Part shown: positions 46,636 to 61,830 of the stretch, one piece after another
Numbering within the stretch: the first letter of the stretch is position 1
How the letters are laid out: each line of letters begins with the position of its first letter
From: a phage
Direction: 5' to 3' (one strand)
Length of the DNA: 64,000 nucleotides
Sequence record: PZ445451.1
Translations under genes and position numbers: made by a program
The notes under the pieces: model-generated
The model's database searches: none
Seen by the model: the letters and a program-made list of their open reading frames with translations, nothing else
What the model was told of the DNA's origin: nothing

Positions 46636-46905
46636 CTAAAATGATTCGTTTGTCTCCATAATATATTGCATTTCCAAATCTTCCATATGTTTCTTAAATT
46701 GGTAAACAATTTCCGATGGGGAAATATCTATATCAAAAAGTTCTTTTGTACCAGAATAAAATCTAATACCATCAACAATAAGACCACCATAATAATCCCA
46801 ATCACTTTCTCGTGAGAAAGGGTTAGGTTCTTCATAATAGTAATCTACTTCAACAATAATAGGCTCTTTATTATCTTGTTTATACTCAAAATCAAAAGTG
46901 TTCAT
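46636..46905 (-). CDS. Hypothetical protein
   Basis: 89 aa acidic ORF, start/stop coupled to its neighbours. Confidence 0.35.
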   Translation of the reverse strand: MNTFDFEYKQDNKEPIIVEVDYYYEEPNPFSRESDWDYYGGLIVDGIRFYSGTKELFDIDISPSEIVYQFKKHMEDLEMQYIMETNESF

Positions 46906-47849: not shown

Positions 47850-47860
47850 ATAACTCCTTG

Positions 47861-48835: not shown

Positions 48836-49508
48836 ATTTTTGAGCCTCCTCATAAGAGATAAAAGTTTTACCATTGCGAAGATCCTCCAGTGATTGTTTA
48901 TATTGTTCCCAGTTTACACCAATCCCCTGTTCTTTCTCTTCTTTTGACAGATTCGCAAAAGGTAAAGGATTATCTCCAAACACATCGTCAGGATGGATAA
49001 ACGCCATAATTCGAATAGGACATGGTACACCGAGAATGCCTCGGTTCAAACCTGCCAGTGGAACGCGCTGAATCCACTCTGCATCTTCATATCCATAACC
49101 GTGGGTGTATGAGCGGAAATAGCCAGCTTTCTCAATAACTGCACGGGAATACATACCAAACTGGCACATACCTAGTTCCCAAATAACCACCTCCCCTTCA
49201 ATACCTTTTACTTTATCTTTAAAGTATTCAGGCATACCAAAGAAATCCCAACCATTTTCCTTTGCCTGTTTTACAAAATATGTTTCCCACCCTGGAACAA
49301 CAGGGTAGCAATCATCATCAAAAATAAACCAGTAGTCATACCCTTCATCATAAAACTTTTTCATCAGTTCATTACGGGCATATGCAACACCTTTTCGTTC
49401 ACGATCATACTGTACAACAAAAGTAGCATTAGGATCAGTCACAAGATAATCTTTAAGAGGACGCTTACCTACAGTAATAACACCAACACCAATTTTTGTA
49501 TTTTCCAA
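48822..49508 (-). CDS. Glycosyltransferase family 2-like protein (GT-A fold)
   Basis: 228 aa; DxD motif in FIFDDDCYP; YGYEDAEW block typical of GT2 enzymes. Confidence 0.5.
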   Translation of the reverse strand: MENTKIGVGVITVGKRPLKDYLVTDPNATFVVQYDRERKGVAYARNELMKKFYDEGYDYWFIFDDDCYPVVPGWETYFVKQAKENGWDFFGMPEYFKDKVKGIEGEVVIWELGMCQFGMYSRAVIEKAGYFRSYTHGYGYEDAEWIQRVPLAGLNRGILGVPCPIRIMAFIHPDDVFGDNPLPFANLSKEEKEQGIGVNWEQYKQSLEDLRNGKTFISYEEAQKYGKS

Positions 49509-49517
49509 AATAACTCC

Positions 49518-50081
49518 TTAAATAATTTTATTCATGTCTTGACAATGTAAAAGGTGTGAAACAGCTTTTCTAGGATCATCATTACCTAAACGGTAGGTGT
49601 GAAATAAATATAACCCACGTAATAAACCTAGCCTTTTGTTGTTAGCATGTAATGCTTTAGAGAAAATTATATCAAACTGTATTGACCTTTCCTCAAAAGG
49701 GATTTCATTCCACAGACTCTTACGAAAGAGAAGAAAGAATCCTGCTAAGATAGCATCTGTAGGTACTTCCTCTATTGAGTTTCCCCATTCTAGATGTGCT
49801 CTTTTTGCAATCTCAATGTGGTGTAATATATTCGGATCTTCACTTCTTTCATTATTAAATAATTGATATGTTGATCCCAATCTGTTACAAGATGCACCAA
49901 GAACATCAAAATCAGGATTTGAACGGACAATTGATTCCAGCCAAGCAGGTTGTTCTGGAAGAAGAAACATTGTATCAATGTCTCTTAGGCAAATCCAACT
50001 ATCTTCTGGTAAGACACTTATTGTGTCATTGATACCTTTTCCAATATCTCCAGAAAGATAGGGAGTTATGTGAAATATCAT
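49518..50081 (-). CDS. Hypothetical protein, possibly GT-A-like
   Basis: 187 aa; ICLRDIDTMF DxD-like motif; adjacent to three glycosyltransferase-like genes. Confidence 0.35.
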   Translation of the reverse strand: MIFHITPYLSGDIGKGINDTISVLPEDSWICLRDIDTMFLLPEQPAWLESIVRSNPDFDVLGASCNRLGSTYQLFNNERSEDPNILHHIEIAKRAHLEWGNSIEEVPTDAILAGFFLLFRKSLWNEIPFEERSIQFDIIFSKALHANNKRLGLLRGLYLFHTYRLGNDDPRKAVSHLLHCQDMNKII

Positions 50082-51431: not shown

Positions 51432-52034
51432 TTAGATATTGTAAACCTTTGTATGAGTTACTACACCATCTTCTACAAAATCAATACGTTCTTGATCCGT
51501 AACTAGTGCAGACAACACTTTAAATTTAATTTTTACACGTTCAAAAGCTGGTTGACCATCTTTAAGATAATTATGTTCGGTTGTCACTGTCTTGTTTACA
51601 AAATCAACTTTCGCTTTACCGTTTTCGCGCAAGTGGAATGTTTTTCCTGCTTTATACACAATTTCAACATTACCTTCGAGAGTAATTCCTTCAAAAAGTT
51701 CACCCTCTTCTTCATTTTCTTCACTTTTGAACAGACGACGAAACTCTTCCATATCAAGATAAACAACATCTTCAGAACAACTATCAGTAAGGTATGTCTT
51801 ACCATCCATTAACCCGAAATATTGCCAGATCGCAGAATAAACATCACTAGTTGATCCAAGGGTTTCCCTGAGTTTAGTTCCACGGATTACCTCATAAACT
51901 TCAAAACTGAAACCAGACTGCAAAGCATTAAACAGTACATCACTAACTTCTAAAGCATAATCTTCATTGTTGTCAATATCCACAAGAAAATTGCCGCTAC
52001 GAATAAGTTTTTGACCTTCTAAAGTAATACCCAT
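51432..52034 (-). CDS. Hypothetical protein
   Basis: 200 aa acidic ORF; GC-rich hairpin downstream. Confidence 0.4.
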   Translation of the reverse strand: MGITLEGQKLIRSGNFLVDIDNNEDYALEVSDVLFNALQSGFSFEVYEVIRGTKLRETLGSTSDVYSAIWQYFGLMDGKTYLTDSCSEDVVYLDMEEFRRLFKSEENEEEGELFEGITLEGNVEIVYKAGKTFHLRENGKAKVDFVNKTVTTEHNYLKDGQPAFERVKIKFKVLSALVTDQERIDFVEDGVVTHTKVYNI

Positions 52035-52057
52035 TGTTTTCTCCTCTTCTATTTAAA

Positions 52058-52080
52058 ATATGCGCCCCGAAGGGCGCTAT
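52058..52080 (-). terminator. Hairpin terminator downstream of the TerD-like gene
   Basis: gcgccc-cgaa-gggcgc stem-loop. Confidence 0.4.
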
Positions 52081-52086
52081 GATTTA

Positions 52087-52683
52087 TTACTCGAACCAAT
52101 CGTCGCCAGCGCCAAACGCTTTAACTACATCGTAAATGTCAAGCCCAGCTTTACCTACACCATATGCTTTCAGTTTCCATTCACTGTCTTCCCGTACCAG
52201 GGAGGCAACGTGGCAAATGGTGTTACCTGCAAGTTCTGGAGCCAAGAAGTCAAAGTCCAGCAGTTCAACATTACGTTCATCATCGAAGATTTTAAGGAAA
52301 CCTTCGGTAGCGTGACCAAGGCGTTTCTTACCCGTTTCGTCATCAATAGTAATTACGAATGCAATTTCCTGTGCTTCAGCAGAGATATTATCCAGTGTAA
52401 CATCAATCTGCTCCATTTGTCCTACACCGTCACGAACATCTTCACCTGCAAAAGTAGAACGTTCAGGATCAAATTTCTGTGCGTAGCATACCAGGTGGCG
52501 AGGAGACAACAGTTCCGGCAGACCAGATGCATTGTGTCGGCAAATCAGAGCACTAACATCCAGATCCAGTTTTTCGTTAGATTTCCAAGAGAATTCCAGA
52601 CGAATACGTTTCAGTGCTGGTGCGATCTTTTTCAGAGAAACTTTTTCGCTAGAACCTTTTTTCAGGGAAATTTTCTGAGTCAT
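52087..52683 (-). CDS. terD: TerD-family protein (tellurite-resistance / stress-response domain)
   Basis: 198 aa; colinear with bacterial TerD in N-terminal ISLKKG...VSLKK, DLDVSA, hydrophobic IAFVITIDD block and C-terminal EWKLKAYGVGKAGL. Confidence 0.7.
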   Translation of the reverse strand: MTQKISLKKGSSEKVSLKKIAPALKRIRLEFSWKSNEKLDLDVSALICRHNASGLPELLSPRHLVCYAQKFDPERSTFAGEDVRDGVGQMEQIDVTLDNISAEAQEIAFVITIDDETGKKRLGHATEGFLKIFDDERNVELLDFDFLAPELAGNTICHVASLVREDSEWKLKAYGVGKAGLDIYDVVKAFGAGDDWFE

Positions 52684-52755
52684 AATTTATTATCTCCTTT
52701 GTTGTTAATTTACGTTGTCTATTTTACTAATCTTTTCTACAAAGTCAAGCGTTTT

Positions 52756-53550
52756 TTACGCTTTTGCTCCAAATTTTTTAACCCACTCACCAAACTCTTC
52801 GGATAGTAGTTTATCGTAAAGTTCTTCGTCAGACAAGGACAAATCTGCAATACCGATAAAATCAACATTATCATATTCTTTTGCCAAGTCTTTCAGGAAT
52901 TTAAAGTTTGCATTACCTACACCAACCATAAACCAGTAAACAGGTGTATTGCGGTGTTTGTTCAGTAAGCTACGTACTGCTGAAGTATCCATGTTCTCCC
53001 CGTCAGTTTGGAAGAAAATCATTGCAGGAGTACGATCAACTTGTGCATCAGTATCTACAACCTGTTCTACAACAGTACGTGTAACTTCTACAAGTTCTTT
53101 TTTACCAGTTAGTTTAGCAAGGAAACCCTTAGCCGGAACTTCTTCATACTCAACGACTTCGCGTGTAATATTTTTCATAGGTACACTACCGAAGTATGTA
53201 TCATAGATCTCTTGCATTACTGGGGCATAAGCTGTACCACCATTGATGCAAACATTAGACATACAAGAGCCGACATAATCATCATATACATCAGCCGTTG
53301 CAGGAGGCAGTTCAAAAGAAGAACTATTGAAAGCCCACATGTCAATCTGTGCATTATCATCAAACTTCATACCAAACGGCAGCAGCTTACCTACAAAATC
53401 ACTAACAGTGCCATCACGATACAGCTCACACATACTACCCGAAATGTCTAAGGCGCTACCGACACGAAGAACAACATCGTTAATCTTTTTCTTACGCAGA
53501 GATACAGTAAGAGTTTCTTGACGTTTTTTAAGACTGATTTTATTGGACAT
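52756..53550 (-). CDS. vWA-domain protein (TerY/TerF-like)
   Basis: 264 aa; MIDAS motif DISGSM after a hydrophobic strand, later FFQTDGENMD; N-terminus ISLKK...VSL resembles the TerD N-terminus. Confidence 0.55.
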   Translation of the reverse strand: MSNKISLKKRQETLTVSLRKKKINDVVLRVGSALDISGSMCELYRDGTVSDFVGKLLPFGMKFDDNAQIDMWAFNSSSFELPPATADVYDDYVGSCMSNVCINGGTAYAPVMQEIYDTYFGSVPMKNITREVVEYEEVPAKGFLAKLTGKKELVEVTRTVVEQVVDTDAQVDRTPAMIFFQTDGENMDTSAVRSLLNKHRNTPVYWFMVGVGNANFKFLKDLAKEYDNVDFIGIADLSLSDEELYDKLLSEEFGEWVKKFGAKA

Positions 53551-53551
53551 A

Positions 53552-53821
53552 TTATTTCTCCTTTCTGAGTGTAATGTTAGTAACTTCTAAATCCACTTCT
53601 ACCATTTCTGTATCATATGAAATACAGCTAAGTTGACCTCTTTGTGAACCGTTCAGACACATCGCTTGGTTTGTATTAACCTTAATAAACACTAAGTTTC
53701 TGAACGTATCTAAACCAGAATCTTGATAGGCAACATAATATACAAATGTATCACCTGCGTCAAGTTCTCCAAAACATTTAGGTTCATCTGATTTGTCGTC
53801 TTTGATATTAAATTTAAGCAC
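53552..53821 (-). CDS. Hypothetical protein
   Basis: 89 aa ORF coupled to its neighbours. Confidence 0.3.
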   Translation of the reverse strand: MLKFNIKDDKSDEPKCFGELDAGDTFVYYVAYQDSGLDTFRNLVFIKVNTNQAMCLNGSQRGQLSCISYDTEMVEVDLEVTNITLRKEK

Positions 53822-54377
53822 TATCTCCTCCTTTACCTACTTTCCAACCTAAATAGAAAGCCTCTCTGGTGATTTTTTGCAACTCGTTTAAAGAGATAGT
53901 TACAACTAAATCATCTTCAATTTCTAGCTTTGAGTCTTCTTCTGTCTCAATGCAAGTATTATGCACTTTGTGGTAAGGATTGTCAACACGTTTAAATTTA
54001 TTATTTTCAGTGCTGAAGAAGCAATCTGGATCTTCTTCTCCATCACCCCAACCCTGGTTAGGGTCTTCTTCAGATCTTTCTGTTGGGATTTCACCTGTAA
54101 AGTGCTCTTCTAACACCATAGCAATACCATCCCCAAGATCGGAAGAGAACATCAAATTACAAACTTCTTCCCAAGGCATAGACCACTTGAATCTTTTACG
54201 ATTGCCATGTTTATCTTCTTCGTTAGAGAAAACACTACCATAGCTATCATAATTGCCATACATCTCTTCAACAACTTTACCACCTTTCAAAAGAAATAGG
54301 TAGCAAGGAGAGCCATCGAAAGAGGTAGAAAGAGCAGCATTACCAGACTCTTTGCACAAGAAACTAAAACATCCCAT
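53814..54377 (-). CDS. Hypothetical acidic protein with a C-terminal motif shared with the next gene
   Basis: 187 aa; C-terminal ISLNELQKITREAFYLGWKVGKGG resembles the N-terminal HLTREELQTIMEDAFIDGWKQGQE of ORF 54377..54577. Confidence 0.35.
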   Translation of the reverse strand: MGCFSFLCKESGNAALSTSFDGSPCYLFLLKGGKVVEEMYGNYDSYGSVFSNEEDKHGNRKRFKWSMPWEEVCNLMFSSDLGDGIAMVLEEHFTGEIPTERSEEDPNQGWGDGEEDPDCFFSTENNKFKRVDNPYHKVHNTCIETEEDSKLEIEDDLVVTISLNELQKITREAFYLGWKVGKGGDSA

Positions 54378-54577
54378 TATACACCAGCCTTAAGATCAAT
54401 TATAGCCAAAGTTGTTTCAGAGTGTGTTTGCTCGTCTACAGGTGCAGTCATATGATAATACAAAAAATCTTCAACATCATACCAATCTGACTCTTGACCT
54501 TGTTTCCAACCATCAATGAAAGCATCTTCCATAATGGTTTGTAACTCTTCACGAGTTAAGTGAATATCTTTACTCAT
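54377..54577 (-). CDS. Hypothetical small protein
   Basis: 66 aa; shares the L..ELQ.I...AF..GWK.G motif with the downstream gene. Confidence 0.3.
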   Translation of the reverse strand: MSKDIHLTREELQTIMEDAFIDGWKQGQESDWYDVEDFLYYHMTAPVDEQTHSETTLAIIDLKAGV

Positions 54578-54810
54578 TACACATTCTCCTCTTTTACCAA
54601 TTCCATCGTTGAACTATCAAAACCATCTTTAGAAGAATAGGTATAGACAGAACGTAGTTCTCGCAGGACAGTAAATACATTAGGATCATCTAACCAAGCA
54701 TCCTGGAGGAGAACATAACGATCTTCATTGTCGTACTGGACAGCGATCATAGAACCAGACAGTTTGTAAATTTTAATATTCATAATATATTTCTCCTTAA
54801 AGTAGACCAC
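54577..54810 (-). CDS. Hypothetical small protein
   Basis: 77 aa ORF. Confidence 0.3.
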   Translation of the reverse strand: MVYFKEKYIMNIKIYKLSGSMIAVQYDNEDRYVLLQDAWLDDPNVFTVLRELRSVYTYSSKDGFDSSTMELVKEENV

Positions 54811-55900
54811 GTTTAACAGTTTGAATCATACCATCTTCAAGAGATTGCACTTCTTGAATGTAATCAATACGAGCAGCACGGGCTTCAGTGTTGATTCGGT
54901 TAGTTTCTTCCAACATTTTAACTAAGTTTTCTTGATCACGACGTAATGTTTCAATATCCAATACTTGACGATTAGCAAGTTGTGTAGCTTCAATCTGGTT
55001 TTGTGCAGCCAGATCACTACCCATTGCAATAGCAGCATTAAATTCATTCAGTACGTTGTTCTGTGTATCGGCTGCTTTCTTCTGGCGTAGACTTTCAATA
55101 TACATAGAAAAGTTTGCAGAGTAAGCAGGGATAACGTTATTCACAATATTACGGGCTGATCGCATCAAACTTGCAGATACTTTCTGCATACTTTGTACAC
55201 GTGGCCCCATCTGAACACAGAGTAAACGTAAGGCTTTCAGGTCTGCAATACGAATTTCAAGCAGATCCATAGTATCACGAGTACGTTTACGCTCTTCTAC
55301 TTCATTTTCAGGTAGTGTATTAAGGCGAACTTCTTCTTTTTCATAAGTAGCTGTTAGAAGCTCTATATCCCTGTTTAAGCTAAGAGCATATTTTGCAATA
55401 GCCTCTTCTAAACGTTGCAGATATCGTAAAGAATCTTCTTCTTTTTTCAAGTCTGTTTGGAGTATCTTTACCAAACCTTCAATACGGTTATTGATGGTGT
55501 CAAATTCTCCAAACAAATCTTCTTTCATACCTAAAACTTTCTTAACTAGTTTACCTAAACCTTTAGATTGTTTAATAGAGTTAGGATCAAGTTGCTTTGC
55601 TTGCTTAATAAGTGCAGTTAAACGTTCACTCATTTCATCTCCCTGAGATGAACGCTGGTGTTTAAGCACTTCAGCATTAAGGTTACGAAGAGTAAGTCCT
55701 GCATCAGCACCAACCTGTTCAATCTCTTCACGAGACATTGGAGGCAGCATTTGTACAGGGCGTGCAACAGCAGGGGCATATACAGGACTTGCATCCATAG
55801 CACTTGGAGCAAACAAAGACTTACTTTTTTCTGTTGTTGCCGTGAATACACTCATTTCAGACGGTTTGCTTTTTACGGCACTGATAAAAGGACTGGACAT
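54797..55900 (-). CDS. TelA-like (toxic anion resistance family) protein, putative
   Basis: 367 aa largely alpha-helical/coiled-coil protein of TelA-like size and composition, within a TerD/TerC neighbourhood; assignment by eye only. Confidence 0.4.
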   Translation of the reverse strand: MSSPFISAVKSKPSEMSVFTATTEKSKSLFAPSAMDASPVYAPAVARPVQMLPPMSREEIEQVGADAGLTLRNLNAEVLKHQRSSQGDEMSERLTALIKQAKQLDPNSIKQSKGLGKLVKKVLGMKEDLFGEFDTINNRIEGLVKILQTDLKKEEDSLRYLQRLEEAIAKYALSLNRDIELLTATYEKEEVRLNTLPENEVEERKRTRDTMDLLEIRIADLKALRLLCVQMGPRVQSMQKVSASLMRSARNIVNNVIPAYSANFSMYIESLRQKKAADTQNNVLNEFNAAIAMGSDLAAQNQIEATQLANRQVLDIETLRRDQENLVKMLEETNRINTEARAARIDYIQEVQSLEDGMIQTVKRGLL

Positions 55901-55968
55901 TCAATTTCCTCCATATTCTTTAGTAGATGGTGATACCTCTGTACCACCATCATAACACAAATTAAGTA

Positions 55969-56820
55969 TTAAACAAACATATCTAAATAATTTGTAGTAA
56001 TAAATGCTCCATCTGCTTCCAGATTAACATAACCAGTAGCATTAGTGGTTAAGAAATCCAGATCGAAGGACTCTTTAACACCACGTACCTCAACACGAGA
56101 AATATCGAATACAGGTAGTGTAACAGCCTCTTCGTGCAATACCGTACCTTTGTAGGTTGCCTTAATGATAAACTTGATATTACCCGTTCCCGCATCATAC
56201 AAAACACTTTCAAAGCCTTTGAGAGTATACTTATCACCAGAGGTGAAGTGCAAAGTTGCTTTGTTTACAGTACGTTTTTTACGAGGAGTTCCTTTCACAC
56301 GTTTATGATCACTACGTTTTTTGTATTTAGGAATGAATACAAACGATACACTCTCAAGAAAGGTATCAACATCAAGGATTTTAATATCCTCTGTTGCAGC
56401 AAATTTTGAAGTCGTTGCATCAAAATGCTTTTCCCTGCGATCATACATAAAGATATCAAAACGATCTTCTAAATCAAACAAATTATGTATCTTAATTTCA
56501 GAATGTTTGCACATTGCAGCAACCTTAAACTCTTCAAAACGTGGGTGTTCTACAAGCTCTTCAAGTTTTACACCAAAGACAGTATATTGCTTCGAAGTCT
56601 TTTCTGGTGTTGGCATTACAGAAGCATAGTCCCCGATTGCGCTCTTAAAGCAAAATTGCTCTTGACCTGTATTTTTACCAACGAATTTACAGTATTCGTC
56701 ATCGTGCATACTTTCTTTGGTAGTACCAACAAACTCAAAACCATCTTTATTCTTCTCAAGAATTTCTTGATTAAAGATCCAACCTTCCAGGCGATACACT
56801 TTACCAACTTCTAGTTTCAT
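55969..56820 (-). CDS. Hypothetical protein
   Basis: 283 aa ORF within the Ter-like gene neighbourhood. Confidence 0.4.
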   Translation of the reverse strand: MKLEVGKVYRLEGWIFNQEILEKNKDGFEFVGTTKESMHDDEYCKFVGKNTGQEQFCFKSAIGDYASVMPTPEKTSKQYTVFGVKLEELVEHPRFEEFKVAAMCKHSEIKIHNLFDLEDRFDIFMYDRREKHFDATTSKFAATEDIKILDVDTFLESVSFVFIPKYKKRSDHKRVKGTPRKKRTVNKATLHFTSGDKYTLKGFESVLYDAGTGNIKFIIKATYKGTVLHEEAVTLPVFDISRVEVRGVKESFDLDFLTTNATGYVNLEADGAFITTNYLDMFV

Positions 56821-56855
56821 CTGTTTCTCCTTCTTATTTAATCTGTATTAAATTA

Positions 56856-57446
56856 TTAACGACGACGTGAGCTACTAAAACTACGTTTCGACGAAGAATA
56901 ACTTTTCGAAGACTTACTATAAGAGCTAATAGGACTTGAGTAAGACTTACGAGCAGAGTAATCACTATTCACTTTTGTTGTTGATGGGCGTGAATACGTT
57001 TGTACACTTTGCTGCTTAATTGTGTTTTGTTTAGTGGTTGTATATGTATTTACAGGTTTATCATAAAAACTACGCTTTTGTGTTGTATATGATTTACTGT
57101 TAGTTGTAGGAGCAGCATTGTTATTAATAATGGTTGTATTGCTACCGCCATCTCTATAACCACCACCGCCACTATTACCACTCAACATATGACCAAGAAG
57201 CATACCTGTAGCAAATTCACCTACACCAGAAGAACTACTACCACCTCCTTGCACAACAACTGTTGAAGGTTGTGCAGGTGCTGCTTGAACAACTTGAGGT
57301 GCAGGTTGATTTACATATTGTTCATCTACCATCTGATTTGGTGTTTGTTGGTAACGTTGATTTTGTACATTTTCAGAATCATCACAACCTACCAGCAATG
57401 CACTACCTAATACAACTGCAACAATAAAAGATTTAATGTTTTTCAT
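56856..57446 (-). CDS. Lipoprotein (lipobox LLVGC), Gly-zipper-like segment and Ser/Tyr/Lys-rich low-complexity tail
   Basis: Signal peptide MKNIKSFIVAVVLGSALLVGC; GGGSSSSGVGEFATGMLLGHMLSG; C-terminal SYSKSSKSYSSSKRSFSSSRRR; start placed at the Met preceding the signal peptide. Confidence 0.5.
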   Translation of the reverse strand: MKNIKSFIVAVVLGSALLVGCDDSENVQNQRYQQTPNQMVDEQYVNQPAPQVVQAAPAQPSTVVVQGGGSSSSGVGEFATGMLLGHMLSGNSGGGGYRDGGSNTTIINNNAAPTTNSKSYTTQKRSFYDKPVNTYTTTKQNTIKQQSVQTYSRPSTTKVNSDYSARKSYSSPISSYSKSSKSYSSSKRSFSSSRRR

Positions 57447-57639
57447 TTGTAACCCTCTCATTTAAAGTCTCAACACAATTTTTAAAATCCCTAGAGAAAC
57501 AATACATCTGTTCTCCGTTCCTGTTGATAGTAATTGTATGGTTATCAATGTATGTTGTCAAGATAAAAATCAAACAAAATAACCCTAAAGCAAAACAAAT
57601 ATTTTCAAACAGAATCCAAAGAACACGTAAAACCACCAT
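57433..57639 (-). CDS. Small membrane protein
   Basis: 68 aa with hydrophobic N-terminal LRVLWILFENICFALGLFCLIFILTTYI. Confidence 0.35.
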   Translation of the reverse strand: MVVLRVLWILFENICFALGLFCLIFILTTYIDNHTITINRNGEQMYCFSRDFKNCVETLNERVTNEKH

Positions 57640-57653
57640 CAGATCACCTCAAC

Positions 57654-57673
57654 AAAGCCCCCGAAGGGGCTTA
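57654..57673 (-). terminator. Hairpin terminator downstream of the TerC-like gene
   Basis: agcccc-cgaa-ggggct stem-loop. Confidence 0.4.
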
Positions 57674-57678
57674 ATGAA

Positions 57679-58656
57679 TTAAGCAACAGTCTGGTCTTCT
57701 TTTTCAGGGAAGATTAAACTTGCAATAACACCCAGCCCCAGAGTACCTAACACAATATACATACTGATCGTCGGATCAATGTGTGCTGGCAGGAAACTCA
57801 CTTTTGCGTGCAGAGTTTCTGCAAACGGGTGATACATCAGTTTTACACCCACAAATACCAGGACTACGATAACTGCTTTCTCCAGATGAACCAAATATTT
57901 CAGTGCAACACTAAGGACAAAGAACAGAGCACGTAGACCTAAAATTGCACACAGCATTGAAGAAAATACAAGCAGAGGTTCTTGTGTCACTGCAATTACT
58001 GCTGGAACAGAGTCTACTGCAAAGATTACGTCAACCATTTCCATTACAAACACACAAACCAGAGCCGGAGTTGCTACACGAACACCATTTTTGATTGTGA
58101 AGAACTTCTCACCATCCATCTGATCAGATACAGGGAACAGCTTACGAACAATGCGAGTAACCCAGTGTTTAGAGTAATCAACTTCTGCGTCATTATCTCC
58201 AGCGAATACCATTTTAGCTGCACAGAAAAGGATGACCGCACCGAAGAAGATATTAACATACCAGCCCAAACTCAACAAGTAAGTGCCTACTGCTACAAAC
58301 ACACCTCGGAAGACAATCGCACCTGCAATACCCCAAAGTAGAATCTTGTGTTGCAAGTGTGTGCTTTTAATACCAAAACTTGCGAATACTGCCACAAATA
58401 CTACTAAGTTATCTACAGAAAGAGATTTCTCCAACACATACCCACTCAAGAACAAGCTCGCAAAATCAGCACCGTGTTGGAAGTATACAAAACCATAGTA
58501 GGCTAATGATACCCCAATCCAGAAAATTGACCAACCAACTGCCGATTTAAATGAAATCTCTTTGTTTTCTCTGTGTCCAAAGAAATCAATACAAATCGAC
58601 AACACTAAAATACCCACTAAAACAACCACATCAATAATTGGGAAACCCAGTTGCAT
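57679..58656 (-). CDS. terC: TerC-family integral membrane protein
   Basis: 325 aa, multiple TM helices; motif EKSLSVDNLVVFVAVF typical of the TerC/Alx family. Confidence 0.65.
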   Translation of the reverse strand: MQLGFPIIDVVVLVGILVLSICIDFFGHRENKEISFKSAVGWSIFWIGVSLAYYGFVYFQHGADFASLFLSGYVLEKSLSVDNLVVFVAVFASFGIKSTHLQHKILLWGIAGAIVFRGVFVAVGTYLLSLGWYVNIFFGAVILFCAAKMVFAGDNDAEVDYSKHWVTRIVRKLFPVSDQMDGEKFFTIKNGVRVATPALVCVFVMEMVDVIFAVDSVPAVIAVTQEPLLVFSSMLCAILGLRALFFVLSVALKYLVHLEKAVIVVLVFVGVKLMYHPFAETLHAKVSFLPAHIDPTISMYIVLGTLGLGVIASLIFPEKEDQTVA

Positions 58657-58733
58657 TCTCTTCTCCTCTTTAATGCGGAGGACAATCCTCCGCTCTATGT
58701 CTTATACTATAAACTGTTTTTAAAGAAAGTCAA

Positions 58734-58982
58734 CTAGTTCAGTTCTGTAATTTTAAGTTTATCTTCTTTGTTAATGATAGGGAAAGCTACAGCATCACCT
58801 ACATCATCAATAAAGCAAATAGCAAGACCACCTTCCACTTTGCTAACCTGACCGTTAAAGGCATGATACGGGGCAGGAACTTCATCCCCATCTTCAATGA
58901 GAATAGCCTCGTAAACCTTGCCGATAGTACAATCACGGGTGTTTATAAATTTTTCAAGCACTTCAACATTTACTTTACGCAT
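58734..58982 (-). CDS. Hypothetical protein
   Basis: 82 aa ORF; GC hairpin between it and terC. Confidence 0.35.
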   Translation of the reverse strand: MRKVNVEVLEKFINTRDCTIGKVYEAILIEDGDEVPAPYHAFNGQVSKVEGGLAICFIDDVGDAVAFPIINKEDKLKITELN

Positions 58983-58996
58983 ATAAAGATCCTCTC

Positions 58997-59203
58997 TTAT
59001 TTGTTAGATTGAAAGATACCACGGAGTACCGCAAGAATGAACGTCACACAGACTACACTCCAAAACGTTACAGGAACATGATGCCAGTCTAAGCCGATAA
59101 TGTCAATCATATAATTGTATGCTAAAAGCAGTAGCCAACTAGGGATTAACACAATCAAGAACACAACAATAAAACAACCTAATACTGCTAAAACACCTGC
59201 CAT
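58997..59203 (-). CDS. Small membrane protein
   Basis: 68 aa, two hydrophobic helices. Confidence 0.35.
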   Translation of the reverse strand: MAGVLAVLGCFIVVFLIVLIPSWLLLLAYNYMIDIIGLDWHHVPVTFWSVVCVTFILAVLRGIFQSNK

Positions 59204-59212
59204 ACTTTCTCC

Positions 59213-59929
59213 TTATTTCAGTTTGTAAACAATTACATTTAAACCTTTGTTTACTAGAGTTTCTTCGATCATAAGTTTTACAATATTCCAAGAACCTCCA
59301 GCCAAACCACAACCAAGCATTGGTAAACCTACAATTTTACCGCCTGAAGATACAACATCGTCTCCCATACTATCTAGCGCATTGTAGATAGCTTCATAAT
59401 TCAGGTCACGCTTACCTTCCTCACGACTACTATAACCATATTGTCCATATAAATTATAAATTGTCAAATTGTTTTCTGTATATTTGGTAAACGTACCTAA
59501 TTTTTTATAATCACCACGTTTAGTGGCACAATCTGCTTTAAACGCACCAGGCCACTTGCTTTTAATTTTTGGTGCAATACCACTACCCATAGTGCAAAAA
59601 CAGTTACAGCAGTGTGCTATAGCGTCTATATCGCCTCTCTCGGCTGCTGCTAAAAGATCACCGTATACCTCAACGATACCTGCTGGATAACTTGTTACAA
59701 TTTCATCTTCCCAGTACATTTTCTCTACACCACCGATCAGTGCAAAGTTTTGTGTAATGCGATCATCAATATAGTTAAGACCTGAAACATACACAGCGTA
59801 TTCATCCTGTGCTGTAATACCTTGCACACGAATTCTTAAGACACCATCTTTATCTGTTGCTACACGCCCAAAATCTTTTTCTGTAATATTGGTGATAGGA
59901 TCTCCGAAAGTCATTACTTTATTAGACAT
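59213..59929 (-). CDS. Macro-domain protein (ADP-ribose binding/processing), putative
   Basis: Blocks AIAHCCNCFCTMGSGIAPKI and KIVGLPMLGCGLAGGSW resemble the macro-domain Gly-rich ADP-ribose-binding loops; start set at the internal ATG with AAAGGGGA RBS just after the upstream stop. Confidence 0.5.
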   Translation of the reverse strand: MSNKVMTFGDPITNITEKDFGRVATDKDGVLRIRVQGITAQDEYAVYVSGLNYIDDRITQNFALIGGVEKMYWEDEIVTSYPAGIVEVYGDLLAAAERGDIDAIAHCCNCFCTMGSGIAPKIKSKWPGAFKADCATKRGDYKKLGTFTKYTENNLTIYNLYGQYGYSSREEGKRDLNYEAIYNALDSMGDDVVSSGGKIVGLPMLGCGLAGGSWNIVKLMIEETLVNKGLNVIVYKLK

Positions 59930-60779
59930 AATAATCCCCTTTAACATTAGATTTGTTGATAATGTTGCTTTCAAAAAATTGACGTAGGAAATCAAAGTTC
60001 TCTTTGTATTTTTCAACGTTATTGTAACCTTCTGCAAGGCAACCAAAGAACAGTTGTTCTACATAATACAAAGGAAGTTGTGAAAGTGCAATTTTAAAAT
60101 CAACTTCGCTTTGACTCATTAGATACTTAATAGGACGAACCAAACATTTAGCATCAGTTTCTTGCTTAATCATTTTAATAAAAGCTGCCAGATTGTTGAT
60201 ATAGTTGAAGTTAAGTGCAGCTTCGGTATTGGCTTCTGTACCTTCATACTTTGCAAAGTACAGGAAAAACGTATCGTTTTCAACACCTTCTTTGTCTAAA
60301 ATTTCAATAAGTTTTTCTTCGTGTGTTCCTGTAATATTAACATCATCAATGAAAATCAGAGTTTTATTACCCCAGAAATCACGATTGATAGAGAAAGTGT
60401 CACCATCGATCAAAGCCTTACGATCTTCTTTGCTAAGAAATCCATAATCATTAATGTAGCTCACTTTACGATGAACGATATCCCACTCCACTGCTTTACC
60501 TCCTTTGATAGAGATTAGGTAGTTGAGGTGATCTACAAAATGTTCAGATAACACTGTAGCTGCATTTTTCACATAGTTATATGGAGATGGAATAACAACA
60601 AAACTTTCATTTACCAGTCGTTCTTCATACTTAGAAAAGAAACTTTCAGCCAGAATGCGCCCCATTCTTTTTGCTGCCTGGTTACTGCCAAACTTTAGCT
60701 TGGAATAATCTGCAATGTTAAATTTTGCTTCCTTCAGGTTAGTAAAAGTATTAGCAAAATGTTGAATTTGATTACGCAT
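59922..60779 (-). CDS. Type I phosphoribosyltransferase-like protein
   Basis: 285 aa; PRPP-binding motif KTLIFIDDVNITGTHEE (hhhhDDhhtTG.T) preceded by a hood-like N-terminal region. Confidence 0.55.
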   Translation of the reverse strand: MRNQIQHFANTFTNLKEAKFNIADYSKLKFGSNQAAKRMGRILAESFFSKYEERLVNESFVVIPSPYNYVKNAATVLSEHFVDHLNYLISIKGGKAVEWDIVHRKVSYINDYGFLSKEDRKALIDGDTFSINRDFWGNKTLIFIDDVNITGTHEEKLIEILDKEGVENDTFFLYFAKYEGTEANTEAALNFNYINNLAAFIKMIKQETDAKCLVRPIKYLMSQSEVDFKIALSQLPLYYVEQLFFGCLAEGYNNVEKYKENFDFLRQFFESNIINKSNVKGDYYV

Positions 60780-61428
60780 TAATAAGTTCCTCTTTTTTAA
60801 GTTTAGCCAACAAGTCTTCTGGATTAATAATATGACAGAACTTCATCCCTATGTCAACAGCTTTTCCATCATAGATCAAACTATCTCCAACGTGTAAGAT
60901 CTCCTCTGGTGCGAGATCAAACGTTACCATTTCATCAAAAGAGAGTTTAAAAAACCTGGGATCTGGTTTACACAAGCAAAACTCATCAGAAAAATGCATA
61001 AAGTCAAATGGTAATTTTGTCAAGCCAGAATATACAGCTAAGAAACTACCAGGTACAAAATTGGTATTGCTTTTAATACTCAAAGAATAGGTTGAACTTA
61101 GCTCTTCCAACTTCTTGCAAAGTTCAGGGTTTAATGTTGGAGGATGTTTTATAAACATTGCTAAACAGTCTCTTTTTAACCCATCCACCTTATCAAGATC
61201 AATGTTCAAATGAGCAGAAAGTGTTTCCCAAGCATTTCTAGATGTTCCACAAATGCCTTTTTCTGCTTTTAAATCCAAGAGAGTTTTTACCTCTTTATAT
61301 ACGGTAGCTGCTTCTACCTCAGAACAAGAGGCATACTCGGCAATAACCTTGTTGCGTTCTTCTGCATACAAAGGATTAGCAGTAATAAGAGTATTCCATA
61401 CATCAAAAGAAATATGCTTAACAGTCAT
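60772..61428 (-). CDS. HAD-superfamily hydrolase (phosphatase-like)
   Basis: 218 aa; motif I ISFDVWNTLI near the N-terminus and motif IV-like HVGDSLIYDGKAV near the C-terminus. Confidence 0.55.
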   Translation of the reverse strand: MTVKHISFDVWNTLITANPLYAEERNKVIAEYASCSEVEAATVYKEVKTLLDLKAEKGICGTSRNAWETLSAHLNIDLDKVDGLKRDCLAMFIKHPPTLNPELCKKLEELSSTYSLSIKSNTNFVPGSFLAVYSGLTKLPFDFMHFSDEFCLCKPDPRFFKLSFDEMVTFDLAPEEILHVGDSLIYDGKAVDIGMKFCHIINPEDLLAKLKKEELINA

Positions 61429-61429
61429 T

Positions 61430-61585
61430 TTAATCCTCCGTCCAAAAGAATATCATCTGCTTAATTTTATTAATCTCTTGATGTAGTAACTTTCCAGCAT
61501 GTGATTGATCTTTAATATTGACAGCAAGAATTTCAAGCTCCGTCAGTTTTTCTTGGATAGCTTTATATTCATCATCTGTAAGCAT
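61430..61585 (-). CDS. Small hypothetical protein (about 52 aa, below the ORF-track cutoff)
   Basis: ATG preceded by AAGGGGA; stop abuts the HAD gene start; translation begins MLTDDEYKAIQEKLTELEILAVNIKDQ. Confidence 0.3.
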   Translation of the reverse strand: MLTDDEYKAIQEKLTELEILAVNIKDQSHAGKLLHQEINKIKQMIFFWTED

Positions 61586-61596
61586 TTTCTTCCCCT

Positions 61597-61800
61597 TTAG
61601 AATGGTAATCTTTGTATATCACTTATCCCCACACCAAGAAGTCTAGCAATATCCTTATCTAAAAGCAACTCTTTTTGTTCTAAAATGTTAATCAGATCTC
61701 CTAATACTTCTTTAATGTCACGATCATTTTTAGCAACGTGACCACCTGCTGTATCAACTTTATCTTTAAAAACAAAATAATGATCCATAATACCCTCCAT
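61597..61800 (-). CDS. Hypothetical small protein
   Basis: 67 aa ORF. Confidence 0.35.
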   Translation of the reverse strand: MEGIMDHYFVFKDKVDTAGGHVAKNDRDIKEVLGDLINILEQKELLLDKDIARLLGVGISDIQRLPF

Positions 61801-61807
61801 ATAAATA

Positions 61808-61830
61808 AAGGAGGCTTTCGCCTCCTTTTA
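61808..61830 (-). terminator. Hairpin terminator downstream of the ATPase gene
   Basis: aaaggaggc-tttc-gcctccttt 9 bp stem. Confidence 0.45.

What the first reader, a model, noticed from the sequence alone, without database searches (positions are those of the whole stretch)
52087..58656. Phage-borne Ter-like (tellurite-resistance-type) stress-response cluster: TerD, vWA, TelA-like, lipoprotein, TerC
A co-oriented block in a lytic phage replication region encodes a protein colinear with bacterial TerD, a vWA protein with an intact MIDAS motif (DISGSM) and TerD-like N-terminus, a TelA-sized helical protein, a lipoprotein, and a TerC-family membrane protein (EKSLSVDNLVVF). In bacteria these families form chromosomal or plasmid Ter operons implicated in membrane-linked stress responses and phage/colicin resistance. 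A phage-encoded set would suggest the phage remodels host envelope or metal-stress physiology during infection, or counters a host system. Interspersed small acidic ORFs share a short duplicated motif (L..ELQ.I...AF..GWK.G), hinting at additional uncharacterised components.
Basis: partly seen in the sequence, partly recalled or inferred. Interest (0 to 1): 0.8.

Follow-up and report, generated by a model that had tools for sequence, protein, structure and literature searches.

The report
Phage-encoded Ter stress-module, already known
This stretch of the E. coli phage PaulScherrer (Bas60, phi92-like) really does carry a compact, conserved set of "tellurite-resistance-type" (Ter) membrane-stress genes, but the same cluster is already annotated in its close relatives and phage Ter clusters are described in the literature; only their role during infection is still untested.

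Summary
On the minus strand, 52087-58656 encodes TerD (Pfam 5e-28), a TerF-type vWA protein with a complete MIDAS motif (1e-38), TelA (2e-33), a lipobox protein and a TerC/Alx-family membrane protein (TIGR03718, above its cut-off), with small acidic ORFs in between.

The window is 100% identical to Escherichia phage PaulScherrer (Bas60, Justusliebigvirus). About 130 Stephanstirmvirinae genomes carry the same block, and it is under strong purifying selection (TerD 7 synonymous/0 nonsynonymous changes, vWA 12/0, TelA 25/2).

The unit is larger than reported. Two terminators (61828-61807 and 52077-52062) bracket about 9.7 kb, which also holds the Ter-associated PRTase_3 + HAD pair and a macrodomain gene.

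It is not new. phi92 and phAPEC8 records say "tellurite resistance". A 2015 analysis of a phage cocktail flagged phi92 gp172/173/178. Iyer et al. 2021 describe phage Ter systems, including PRTase/HAD.

It is a reduced Ter set: no TerB, a single TerD with a degenerate Ca2+ loop, and no riboswitch.

Function is inferred only. I favour an early-expressed inner-membrane complex that changes the envelope or divalent-metal state and excludes competing phages or colicins. Metal or envelope homeostasis is nearly as likely.

One interspersed ORF belongs to a widespread phage family with no known fold and no tie to Ter genes.

The parts
52062..52077 (-). Terminator-like hairpin (GCGCCC-TTCG-GGGCGC plus T-rich tail) that ends the block just after terD
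   Evidence: Consensus scan; sequence read.
52087..52683 (-). TerD-family protein, 198 aa (bas60_0057, orthologue of phi92 gp172). The Ca2+-loop motif is degenerate: GEDVRDGVGQMEQ against GDNRTGEGDGDDE in Klebsiella TerD.
   Evidence: Pfam TerD 5.1e-28. PDB 2KXT 8.6e-15, with alignment. 81% identical to phAPEC8 gp066. 7 synonymous/0 nonsynonymous changes against phage PATM.
52721..52748 (-). Sigma-70-like promoter match (TTGACT-16-TAAAAT) upstream of terD
   Evidence: This is a consensus match only; the total number of such matches in the region does not exceed the shuffled expectation.
52756..53550 (-). Standalone TerF-type vWA protein, 264 aa, with an intact MIDAS motif. It has a 28-aa N-terminal leader (ISLKKRQETLTVSLRK) that resembles the TerD N-terminus.
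   Evidence: Pfam vWA-TerF-like 1.2e-38. The domain starts at residue 29. MIDAS and leader residues are invariant in alignment A2. Closest named bacterial homologue is 33% identical. No hit to any PADLOC model. 12 synonymous/0 nonsynonymous changes.
53552..53821 (-). Acidic 89-aa ORF of unknown function (phrog_11278). phAPEC8 carries two apparent paralogues flanking its vWA gene.
   Evidence: The paralogy with the phAPEC8 ORFs was judged by eye from their translations, not aligned.
53814..54377 (-). 187-aa acidic protein. The N-terminal ~140 aa is a widespread, strongly conserved phage domain (MGCFSF..C, GNYDSYG, DPNQGWG) with no known fold. The C-terminal helix carries the ELQ..AF..GWK.G motif.
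54377..54577 (-). 66-aa acidic ORF (pI 4.2) whose N-terminus repeats the ELQ..AF..GWK.G motif
   Evidence: BLASTP 11/27 identical, E 2e-5. Regex scan finds only two copies in the window. In phAPEC8 a 132-aa ORF carries the same motif preceded by a longer N-terminal part (read by eye).
54577..54810 (-). 77-aa acidic ORF of unknown function (phrog_26823)
54797..55900 (-). TelA-family protein, 367 aa. Disordered N-terminus followed by three very long helices.
   Evidence: Pfam TelA 2e-33. Homologues in 245 phage records. Single-sequence AlphaFold2 model is all-helical but low confidence, pLDDT 59. 25 synonymous/2 nonsynonymous changes.
55969..56820 (-). 283-aa protein with full-length homologues only in the genus. 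Only its C-terminal third is weakly shared with Phapecoctavirus.
   Evidence: Only 2 hits in 5.8 billion proteins. tblastn against phage records. No Pfam or NCBIfam hit.
56856..57461 (-). Predicted inner-membrane lipoprotein (lipobox LLVG-C, Asp at +2). Q/N/S-rich, with a conserved glycine-rich hydrophobic stretch (GGGSSSSGVGEFATGMLLGHMLSG) and a basic tail.
   Evidence: Sequence read. One hydrophobic segment and pI 9.96. phrog_21570. phAPEC8 homologue with its own lipobox and the same glycine-rich stretch.
57433..57639 (-). 68-aa single-pass membrane protein, also present in phAPEC8
   Evidence: Hydrophobic segment 9-27. phrog_17591. phAPEC8 homologue identified by eye from its translation.
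57679..58656 (-). TerC/Alx-family integral membrane protein, 325 aa. Both conserved acidic motifs are present (EKSLSVDNLVVF and EMVDVIFAVDSVPAV).
   Evidence: Pfam TerC 1.7e-38. TIGR03718 at 323 bits against a cut-off of 246. About 9-10 hydrophobic segments. Only ~70% nucleotide identity over fewer than 200 nt to E. coli operon terC.
58675..58733 (-). Sigma-70-like promoter (TTGACT-16-TATAGT, 58733-58706) followed by a hairpin in the 5' untranslated region (GCGGAGGA-TTG-TCCTCCGC, 58693-58675), directly upstream of terC
   Evidence: sequence. The -35 element and the hairpin are conserved in phAPEC8, with an apparent compensatory stem change read by eye from alignment A5. The phAPEC8 record annotates a host-dependent promoter at the same place. 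No Rfam family matches.
58734..59203 (-). Two small ORFs: 82 aa (acidic) and 68 aa (two hydrophobic segments), between the macrodomain gene and terC
59213..59947 (-). Macrodomain protein, with an N-terminal ~100 aa of unknown function. Its best family-level similarity is to the DarG macrodomain. Probably an independent ADP-ribose-processing or counter-defence gene.
   Evidence: Pfam Macro 2.8e-7. PADLOC DarG 8.4e-14 and NCBIfam DarG 4.3e-13, the latter far below its curated cut-off. Annotated as a macrodomain protein in the record. The orthologous gene in phAPEC8, annotated 'phosphatase', is only 157 aa (not scanned for a macrodomain here).
59922..60779 (-). PRTase_3 (ComF-like phosphoribosyltransferase, the Ter-associated type). 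The PRPP-binding loop LIFIDDVNITGTHE is intact.
   Evidence: Pfam PF15610 2.9e-41. The loop is invariant in alignment A4. Found in 157 phage records.
60772..61428 (-). HAD-superfamily hydrolase, overlapping and always paired with PRTase_3. Motif I is FDVWNT: the nucleophile Asp is kept and the Asp at +2 is replaced by Trp.
   Evidence: Pfam HAD 4.5e-6, 27.6 bits against 26.4. Alignment A3 shows D9-V-W11 invariant in five phage lineages. The same gene pair occurs in XaC1, CcrColossus and a Rhizobium phage.
61430..61800 (-). Two small ORFs (51 and 67 aa) at the head of the block
61807..61828 (-). Terminator-like hairpin (AAAGGAGGC-GAAA-GCCTCCTTT plus T-rich tail) after the upstream AAA-ATPase gene. 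It marks the upstream boundary of the block.
   Evidence: sequence. The PATM record annotates a terminator at the corresponding position.

Best explanation
Shown:
- The region is a genuine, conserved, phage-encoded reduced Ter module in E. coli phage PaulScherrer (Bas60; phi92-like; Stephanstirmvirinae).
- It comprises a TerC/Alx-type membrane protein, TelA, a standalone TerF-type vWA protein with an intact MIDAS motif, and one TerD.
- It also contains subfamily-conserved membrane partners (an inner-membrane lipoprotein and a small single-pass membrane protein) and several acidic ORFs.
- It sits in a ~9.7 kb terminator-bounded block that also encodes the Ter-associated PRTase_3/HAD pair and a macrodomain protein.

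Inferred mechanism:
1. Host RNA polymerase transcribes terC through terD early in infection, from the conserved sigma-70-type promoter upstream of terC.
2. TerC inserts into the inner membrane and moves or handles divalent metal (Mn2+, Zn2+ or Ca2+).
3. TelA, the MIDAS-vWA protein and TerD assemble beneath it.
4. PRTase_3/HAD may supply a nucleoside-like ligand.
5. The net effect is a changed envelope and divalent-cation state of the infected cell. This blocks entry of competing phages or colicins (superinfection exclusion), as in the phage-inhibition and colicin-resistance phenotypes of bacterial ter operons. It is not tellurite resistance as such.

Confidence in the identity is about 0.95. 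Confidence in the exclusion mechanism is about 0.35-0.4.
For: Identity:
- Profile-HMM hits above curated cut-offs for TerD, vWA-TerF-like, TelA, TerC and PRTase_3.
- TerD matches solved TerD structures.
- MIDAS residues are invariant.

A functional phage gene set:
- 100% identity to MZ501100.
- TelA, TerD and PRTase_3 each have exactly 132 phage records at >=60% identity.
- Overall pN/pS is 0.086, with no nonsynonymous change in TerD, vWA or HAD against phage PATM.

Operon structure and early expression:
- Terminators at 61828-61807 and 52077-52062.
- A TTGACT-16-TATAGT promoter before terC. It is conserved in phAPEC8, where the record annotates a host-dependent promoter.

Membrane context: TerC has about 9-10 hydrophobic segments. 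There is also a lipobox protein and small membrane proteins, and these are conserved in phAPEC8.

Literature on the mechanism:
- Iyer et al. 2021 (PMC7824862) propose that phage Ter systems, with PRTase/HAD, TerD, TerC, TerF-vWA and TelA, serve in competition with superinfecting phages.
- The R478 ter cluster gives phage inhibition and colicin resistance (Whelan 1995, as cited).
- Deleting terC in K. pneumoniae lowers resistance to phage, Zn and Mn (PMC12054061).
Against: - No experiment on any phage Ter gene was found.
- The exclusion role is extrapolated from bacterial systems that contain TerB and several TerD paralogues, which are absent here.
- The TerD Ca2+ loop is degenerate.
- The HAD lacks the Asp+2 catalytic residue, so the proposed 'nucleoside signal' step is uncertain.
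- The PRTase_3/HAD pair lies away from TerC/TelA in other phages and is separated from terC here by a promoter, so it may be an independent module.
- Promoter and terminator calls are consensus matches whose total numbers do not exceed shuffled expectation.
- Expression timing was not measured.
Confidence: 0.5

Rival explanations
1. Host-maintenance (auxiliary metabolic) role. The phage TerC/TelA/vWA/TerD set buffers divalent-metal (Mn2+, Zn2+, Ca2+) and envelope stress in the infected cell, or metalates periplasmic proteins. This keeps the cell productive until lysis, with no role in excluding other phages.
For: - The TerC protein passes the TerC/Alx metal-homeostasis subfamily model and keeps both conserved acidic membrane motifs (sequence).
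- Bacterial terC contributes to Zn and Mn resistance, and the ter operon is induced by Zn and Mn (PMC12054061).
- TerD is a Ca2+-binding fold (PDB 2KXT match), and the vWA MIDAS is a metal site.
- From general knowledge, not tested here: Alx and MeeF/MeeY are Mn2+ exporters or metalation factors.
Against: - The TerD Ca2+ loop is degenerate.
- No Mn riboswitch precedes the phage terC.
- This reading does not explain why TelA, vWA and the PRTase_3/HAD pair are kept.
- No measurement exists.
Confidence: 0.3
2. Counter-defence role. The block, or its PRTase_3/HAD/Macro part, neutralises a host immune pathway. It might act by making or destroying a nucleotide-derived signal, by removing ADP-ribose marks, or by acting as a decoy for a host Ter system.
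For: - The macrodomain's best hits are to the DarG ADP-ribosyl-glycohydrolase.
- In other phages the PRTase_3/HAD pair, or the Ter genes themselves, lie near NAD/ADP-ribose genes. The pair sits next to an NMNAT/Nudix gene in a Rhizobium phage, and an ADP-ribose-binding protein lies about 8 kb away in XaC1. In phiPsa267 the Ter genes lie a few kb from PRPP synthetase and NAMPT genes.
- About 19% of complete E. coli genomes carry a ter operon that the phage could meet.
Against: - The isolation host, K-12, shows no ter operon hit in the listing. From general knowledge it lacks one.
- The macrodomain scores far below the DarG cut-off (49 against 250 bits).
- Nothing links TerC, TelA, vWA or TerD to a known anti-defence activity.
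- No PADLOC match for the Ter proteins.
Confidence: 0.1
3. No joint system. The Ter-family genes are independent add-on genes that merely lie next to each other in a variable early region and do not work together.
For: - The genes between them differ between genera. The 283-aa ORF has full-length homologues only in its genus, and phAPEC8 has an HExxH protein there instead.
- The 187-aa ORF family occurs elsewhere without Ter genes.
- PRTase_3/HAD are unlinked from TerC/TelA in other phages.
Against: - The four Ter genes recur together in unrelated phage lineages: the phiPsa374 group (TelA, vWA, TerC and TerD adjacent) and phiKp34, Caulobacter and Acinetobacter jumbo phages.
- They also recur together in bacteria (Anantharaman 2012, as summarised).
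- Order and content are conserved across two genera under strong purifying selection.
Confidence: 0.07
4. Literal tellurite or toxic-anion resistance conferred on the host, or a bacterial fragment misassembled into the phage contig.
For: Database labels such as 'tellurite resistance protein' in related records.
Against: - This is a virulent phage, so the host does not survive to benefit.
- TerB and the TerZ/A/E paralogues are absent from the block.
- The authors of the phiPsa374 study reach the same conclusion for their phage.
- GC content is uniform, and the block is present and syntenic in more than 100 independently sequenced phages.
- No E. coli genome holds >=80% of the terC gene.
Confidence: 0.02

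Closest known systems
Orthologous clusters in phage phi92 (gp172-gp187) and phAPEC8 (gp048-gp066), subfamily Stephanstirmvirinae
   Same: Same genes in the same order: HAD, PRTase_3, macro, [promoter], TerC, small membrane protein, lipoprotein, TelA, acidic ORFs, vWA, TerD. Identity is 97-100% to phi92-like phages and 64-81% to phAPEC8. Related records already carry the labels 'tellurite resistance', 'TerD domain protein' and 'VWA domain-containing protein'.
   Different: In the PaulScherrer record itself all Ter genes are 'hypothetical protein'. The genes between TerC and TelA differ between genera: a 283-aa ORF here, and a 197-aa ORF plus an HExxH protein in phAPEC8.
Phage Ter systems described by Iyer, Anantharaman, Krishnan, Burroughs and Aravind 2021 (Acinetobacter phage ME3, Caulobacter jumbo phages). 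Also phiPsa374 (terC/terD/terF/telA) and Klebsiella phiKp34.
   Same: The same four core families, with or without PRTase and HAD. All are virulent phages. The same proposal of a role in inter-phage competition is made.
   Different: Sequence identity is low (TelA 20-25%, TerD ~26%). In several of those phages PRTase_3/HAD lie far from the Ter core. The companion genes specific to this subfamily (lipoprotein, small membrane protein, 187-aa family) are not shared.
Bacterial terZABCDEF operon (IncHI2 plasmid R478, E. coli O157:H7 O-island, K. pneumoniae)
   Same: TerC, TerD-fold and TerF-type vWA families. Documented phenotypes include phage inhibition, colicin resistance and Zn/Mn resistance.
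   Different: No TerB. One TerD instead of five paralogues. The vWA is not fused to a TerD domain. TelA is present (in bacteria it belongs to the separate kilA/telAB or yceH context). The TerD Ca2+ loop is degenerate. Only ~70% nucleotide identity over fewer than 200 nt to E. coli terC.
Bacillus subtilis yceCDEFGH stress operon (TerD paralogues, TerC-like YceF, TelA-like YceH). Recalled from general knowledge, not tested here.
   Same: It combines TerD, TerC and TelA without TerB, which is the bacterial architecture closest to the phage set. One related phage record even labels its TerD 'yceD: general stress protein'.
   Different: Three TerD paralogues and no TerF-type vWA. It is regulated by sigma-W and sigma-B. 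No PRTase_3/HAD neighbours.

Membership tests
TerD family (PF02342) | Full-length match to the TerD beta-sandwich profile above the gathering score | tested here: met
   98.2 bits against 25.3, residues 5-180. PDB 2KXT 8.6e-15 and 3IBZ 3.3e-13.
TerD family (PF02342) | Canonical Ca2+-binding loop, GDN(x)TG(x)G(x)GDDE. The role of this motif is recalled from the Klebsiella TerD structure paper. | tested here: not met
   The aligned loop is GEDVRDGVGQMEQ here against GDNRTGEGDGDDE in 2KXT. phAPEC8 has GDDVRDGTGSMEQ. By contrast, phiPsa267 TerD keeps DNRNG....GQDDEE. The upstream DLD is kept.
vWA-TerF-like (PF10138) | Profile match above the gathering score and a complete MIDAS (DxSxS ... T ... 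D) | tested here: met
   133.8 bits against 29.4. D35, S37, S39, T106 and D183 are conserved in A2.
TerF proper (TerD domain fused to vWA) | An N-terminal TerD domain in the same polypeptide | tested here: not met
   Only a 28-aa leader precedes the vWA domain. Fused TerD+vWA homologues exist (P0180, P0183) but are only 28-30% identical.
TelA family (PF05816) | Near full-length profile match above the gathering score | tested here: met
   116.3 bits against 30; residues 57-362 align to profile positions 13-330 of 332.
TerC/Alx subfamily (TIGR03718, PF03741) | Score above the curated subfamily cut-off; multi-pass membrane protein | tested here: met
   323.3 bits against 246.4. Pfam 132.6 bits against 27.8. 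About 9-10 hydrophobic segments.
TerC/Alx subfamily (riboswitch-controlled members) | A yybP-ykoY Mn2+ riboswitch in the 5' leader | tested here: not met
   No Rfam family reaches its gathering score anywhere in the window. The leader is only 77 nt, holding a promoter and a simple hairpin.
Complete ter operon (terZABCDEF type) | Presence of TerB and of several TerD paralogues (TerZ, A, D, E) | tested here: not met
   Pfam scans covered the minus-strand ORFs of 66 aa or more between 51432 and 61428, apart from four of the small ORFs, which were checked against PHROGs or not at all. They found one TerD and no TerB. The rest of the phage genome outside the window was not scanned.
Ter-associated biosynthetic module (Anantharaman 2012; summarised in PMC7824862) | A PRTase_3 (ComF-like) phosphoribosyltransferase with an intact PRPP loop, next to a HAD hydrolase | tested here: met
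   PF15610 142 bits against 28.7. The IDDVxITGxHE loop is invariant. The HAD gene overlaps it by 8 nt.
HAD phosphatases | Motif I DxDx(T/V), with Asp+2 as the general acid/base | tested here: not met
   Motif I is D9-V-W11-N-T. The Trp at +2 is invariant in five phage lineages (A3). The Pfam score is only just above its cut-off, 27.6 against 26.4.
Ter-associated biosynthetic module, full version | ATP-grasp and TIM-barrel (HpcH-like) enzymes alongside PRTase and HAD (recalled from Anantharaman 2012) | tested here: not met
   No such Pfam domains in any ORF of the block.
TerY-P defence triad (Gao 2020; PADLOC) | A TerY-type vWA with a PP2C phosphatase and a Ser/Thr kinase | tested here: not met
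   The vWA protein has no PADLOC hit at E<=0.01. No kinase or PP2C domains in the block.
DarG antitoxin | Score above the equivalog cut-off, plus a DarT-binding C-terminal domain | tested here: not met
   49.3 bits against a cut-off of 250. Only the macrodomain aligns, residues 127-275.
Bacterial lipoproteins | Signal peptide followed by a lipobox L-x-G/A-C | tested here: inconclusive
   MKNIKSFIVAVVLGSALLVG-C-DD was read from the sequence. The phAPEC8 homologue has LT-A-C. No SignalP/LipoP-type tool was available.

The most novel reading that the evidence does not exclude
The block is a phage-owned conflict system. Under this reading, PRTase_3 and the atypical (Asp+2 to Trp) HAD make a nucleoside-like signal. 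That signal gates a TerC-TelA-vWA-TerD complex, helped by an inner-membrane lipoprotein and a small membrane protein. The vWA protein's conserved TerD-like leader docks onto TerD. The complex then closes the infected cell to rival phages and colicins. If so, Bas60 infecting K-12 (which lacks a ter operon) would be the first tractable system in which the 30-year-old question of what Ter proteins actually do could be answered.
Probability: 0.2. Interest if true: 0.6.

Novelty: already known. Interest (0 to 1): 0.3.

Why it matters
What Ter systems do at the molecular level has been unresolved since the 1990s, in bacteria and in phages alike. This cluster adds no new kind of system. It does show that a compact four-gene Ter core, plus PRTase_3/HAD, is strictly conserved under purifying selection in a whole subfamily of virulent E. 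coli phages. One of these is a member of the publicly distributed BASEL collection (Bas60) that grows on K-12, a host without its own ter operon. That makes clean loss- and gain-of-function tests feasible. Practically, the Ter genes in the PaulScherrer record, now labelled 'hypothetical protein', can be re-annotated.

Tried and rejected
- Mn riboswitch before the phage terC: Rfam found nothing in the whole window.
- TerY-P or another catalogued defence system: no PADLOC hit for the Ter proteins. The only such hit was the DarG macrodomain similarity of the neighbouring macro protein.
- The 283-aa ORF as a hidden Ter component (TerB or ATP-grasp): no Pfam, NCBIfam or PADLOC support. Full-length homologues are confined to the genus.
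- The 187-aa ORF as a Ter-specific accessory: rejected. Its N-domain family (322 clusters) occurs in other phage contigs without Ter genes. A confident model gave no fold match. The afdb50 library was unavailable.
- TelA fold comparison: the single-sequence model had pLDDT 59, too poor to search with.
- The vWA N-terminus as a TerD domain: it is only a short leader.
- Recent capture from E. coli: rejected.
- Local tblastn synteny mapping failed because loci fetched through protein-mode hits were not available to the script sandbox. I used pairwise comparisons and ORF listings instead.
- Anantharaman 2012 and the phi92 genome paper are not held in the library. Their content is cited only through papers that summarise them, or from memory, and is marked as such.
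- Literature searches for experimental work on phage Ter genes found none.

Full report
**What the window is.** Window 52000-58700 is 100% identical to Escherichia phage PaulScherrer (MZ501100.1, Bas60 of the BASEL collection; Stephanstirmvirinae, Justusliebigvirus). It is 97.8-98.4% identical to dozens of phi92-like phages. GC content is uniform at 0.35-0.43 across the window, and the finding's region does not stand out. All genes from about 37 kb to the end of the window are on the minus strand. On one side the block is flanked by the genes for an intein-containing DNA polymerase, a primase/helicase, four glycosyltransferases and a SleB-like cell-wall hydrolase. On the other side are an AAA ATPase and NrdG/NrdD.

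| Coordinates | Assignment | Evidence |
|---|---|---|
| 52087-52683 | TerD | Pfam 5e-28, residues 5-180; matches solved TerD structures 2KXT and 3IBZ |
| 52756-53550 | vWA-TerF-like | Pfam 1e-38 |
| 54797-55900 | TelA | Pfam 2e-33 |
| 57679-58656 | TerC | Pfam 2e-38; TIGR03718 TerC/Alx, 323 bits against cut-off 246 |

- The MIDAS residues D35, S37, S39, T106 and D183 are invariant or nearly so across 13 diverse homologues.
- The 201-aa protein has a signal peptide and lipobox (…ALLVG-C-DD), which suggests inner-membrane retention. Its phAPEC8 homologue also has a lipobox and shares a glycine-rich hydrophobic stretch.
- The small ORFs are acidic, pI 4.2-4.6.
- The duplicated motif is real but short (11/27 identical, E 2e-5). 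It occurs only twice in the window: as the C-terminal helix of the 187-aa protein and at the N-terminus of the adjacent 66-aa protein.
- The 'TerD-like N-terminus' of the vWA protein is a 28-residue leader outside the Pfam vWA domain. It resembles the first strands of TerD (11/20 identical). It is invariant in standalone TerF-type vWA proteins from phages and bacteria (L7, K9, L18, K20). This is a family feature, not a TerD domain.

**Extent of the unit.** Upstream lie three further genes:
- A macrodomain protein (59213-59947).
- PRTase_3 (59922-60779; PF15610, 2.9e-41). This is the ComF-like phosphoribosyltransferase family linked to Ter systems.
- An overlapping HAD hydrolase (60772-61428).

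Minus-strand terminator-like hairpins at 61828-61807 and 52077-52062 bracket about 9.7 kb. Directly upstream of terC there is a TTGACT-16-TATAGT promoter and then a stable hairpin in the 5' leader. The -35 element and the hairpin are conserved in phAPEC8, apparently with a compensatory stem change as read by eye from the alignment. The phAPEC8 record annotates a host-dependent promoter at that position. These are consensus matches, and their overall count is not above the shuffled expectation. I treat early, host-polymerase transcription as an inference.

**Conservation.**
- TelA homologues occur in 245 phage records, PRTase_3 in 157 and TerD in 144. Each gives exactly 132 records at >=60% identity, which fits universal presence in Stephanstirmvirinae.
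- phAPEC8 keeps the same order: HAD, PRTase_3, macro, promoter, TerC, small membrane protein, lipoprotein, …, TelA, motif protein, the 187-aa protein, an 89-aa-like protein, vWA, …, TerD.
- Against phage PATM the block shows pN/pS of 0.086. Synonymous/nonsynonymous counts are TerD 7/0, vWA 12/0, HAD 10/0, TelA 25/2, PRTase_3 11/2 and TerC 5/2. The genes are functional in the phage.
- The nearest named bacterial vWA homologue is 33% identical.
- The phage terC shares only ~70% nucleotide identity over fewer than 200 nt with the E. coli operon terC. That operon gene is present in 1010 of 5426 complete genomes, and none holds >=80% of the phage gene. This is an old phage lineage of Ter genes, not a recent capture or an assembly artefact.

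**How it differs from bacterial Ter operons.**
- No TerB and no further TerD paralogues were found among the ORFs scanned.
- The Ca2+-binding loop of TerD is degenerate: GEDVRDGVGQMEQ against GDNRTGEGDGDDE.
- The vWA is not fused to a TerD domain.
- No yybP-ykoY riboswitch precedes terC.
- The ATP-grasp and TIM-barrel enzymes of the full biosynthetic module are absent.
- The HAD partner keeps the nucleophile Asp but has Trp in place of the Asp+2 acid/base, invariantly in five phage lineages. Its 'phosphatase' label is therefore uncertain. The PRTase PRPP loop is intact.
- The HAD-PRTase_3 pair also occurs away from TerC/TelA in phage XaC1, CcrColossus and a Rhizobium phage. Its functional tie to the Ter core in phages is plausible but not proven.

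**Interspersed ORFs.**
- The N-terminal ~140 residues of the 187-aa protein belong to a strongly conserved, widespread phage family. It has 293 homologues at 50-65% identity, forming 322 clusters, and always starts MGCFSF..C, with GNYDSYG and DPNQGWG motifs.
- Homologues in other phage contigs have no Ter genes nearby.
- The 283-aa ORF has full-length homologues only in its genus.
- The lipoprotein and the 68-aa membrane protein are conserved next to TerC in both genera and are the best candidates for true lineage-specific partners.

**What is already known.**
- Related records label these genes 'tellurite resistance', 'putative stress/toxic anion resistance protein', 'TerD domain protein' and 'VWA domain-containing protein'.
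- A 2015 analysis of the Intesti phage cocktail flagged phi92 gp172 and gp173 as TerD and gp178 as tellurite resistance (PMC4690881).
- Iyer et al. 2021 describe phage Ter systems with PRTase, HAD, TerD, TerC, TerF-vWA and TelA in jumbo 'and certain other related smaller tailed phages'. They propose a role in competition with superinfecting phages (PMC7824862).
- phiPsa374 and phiKp34 carry similar sets. The authors of the phiPsa374 study note that tellurium resistance is unlikely.
- No experimental test of any phage Ter gene was found.
- In the PaulScherrer record itself the four genes are 'hypothetical protein'.

**Mechanism.** Shown: the gene identities, conservation, purifying selection and membrane-protein context. 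Inferred:
1. Early transcription occurs from the terC promoter.
2. TerC inserts into the inner membrane and handles divalent metal. TerC is Alx-like, and bacterial terC affects Zn, Mn and phage resistance.
3. TelA, MIDAS-vWA and TerD assemble beneath it.
4. PRTase_3/HAD possibly supply a nucleoside-like ligand.
5. The outcome is exclusion of secondary phages and colicins, by analogy with the phage-inhibition and colicin-resistance phenotypes of the R478 ter cluster (cited).

I rate this at about 0.35-0.4. The metal/envelope-homeostasis alternative is about 0.3, a counter-defence role about 0.1, 'no joint system' under 0.1, and literal tellurite resistance or misassembly about 0.02.

**Verdict.** This is a correct and careful observation of a real, functional phage Ter module, but it is an already known one. 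Interest is modest at 0.3. The value lies in Bas60 on K-12 being a tractable system for finally testing what Ter proteins do. There are also a few unexplained details: the TerD-like leader on TerF-type vWA proteins, the Trp+2 HAD, the conserved terC leader hairpin, and the MGCFSF protein family.

Noticed in passing
[not shown]
   Followed up: partly
window 59213-59947 (-): A macrodomain protein whose best family-level similarity is to the ADP-ribosyl-glycohydrolase domain of the DarG antitoxin (PADLOC 8e-14; NCBIfam 4e-13, far below its cut-off). It carries an extra ~100-aa N-terminal region that is absent from the much shorter (157-aa) phAPEC8 orthologue, annotated 'phosphatase'. It may be a counter-defence against DNA or protein ADP-ribosylation. 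Bas60 is also reported to encode a NADAR protein (PMC11257639).
   Followed up: partly
window 60772-61428 (-); L002 10352-11008; L003 9333-10001; L005 11316-11990; L006 4093-4785: The HAD hydrolase that always precedes PRTase_3 has motif I FDVW(N/K)T, with Trp in place of the catalytic Asp+2. This is invariant across five phage lineages, so it may not be a conventional phosphatase.
   Followed up: partly
window 58675-58693 (- strand 5' leader of terC); L002 ~12590-12610: A stable hairpin (GCGGAGGA-TTG-TCCTCCGC) lies between the terC promoter and its ribosome-binding site. It is conserved in phAPEC8, apparently with a compensatory stem change (read by eye from the alignment). It matches no Rfam family. 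Some phage records annotate it as a plus-strand terminator.
   Followed up: partly
window 52756-52840 region (vWA residues 1-28) and homologues in alignment A2: Standalone TerF-type vWA proteins from phages and bacteria all start with a conserved leader, ISLxKRxE...(V/I)SLxK, that mimics the first strands of TerD. It may be a TerD-docking element.
   Followed up: partly
window 46905-50081 (-): A run of four glycosyltransferase-like genes lies next to the block. One gives a weak hit to the TET-associated glycosyltransferase family (6.7e-5, below the Pfam cut-off). The BASEL paper mentions a putative dTDP-glycosylation machinery in phi92-like phages, which are nevertheless sensitive to restriction-modification systems.
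   Followed up: no
window 41040-44354 (-): According to the GenBank annotation of the record, the DNA polymerase gene contains an intein.
   Followed up: no
hits H11-H14 (MG065639, MG065645, MG065656, MG065689): Five records named 'Campylobacter phage' with host C. jejuni match in that search, and the four listed (H11-H14) are ~98% identical to this E. coli phage across the whole region. The host labels look wrong, or the preparations were contaminated.
   Followed up: no
L004 785-4672 (phiPsa267) and L006 5857-6420 (Rhizobium phage RHph_TM61): In other phages NAD/ADP-ribose metabolism genes lie close by. In phiPsa267, PRPP-synthetase-like and NAMPT genes lie a few kb from the Ter genes. In the Rhizobium phage, an NMNAT/Nudix gene lies right next to the PRTase_3/HAD pair. 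This may be simple early-region clustering or may hint at a shared pathway.
   Followed up: no
L002 15232-15822 (phAPEC8 gp056): phAPEC8 carries an HExxH-motif (HEIAH, SprT-like) protein between the lipoprotein region and TelA. PaulScherrer instead has the N-terminal part of its 283-aa ORF, which is confined to its genus, at that position.
   Followed up: no
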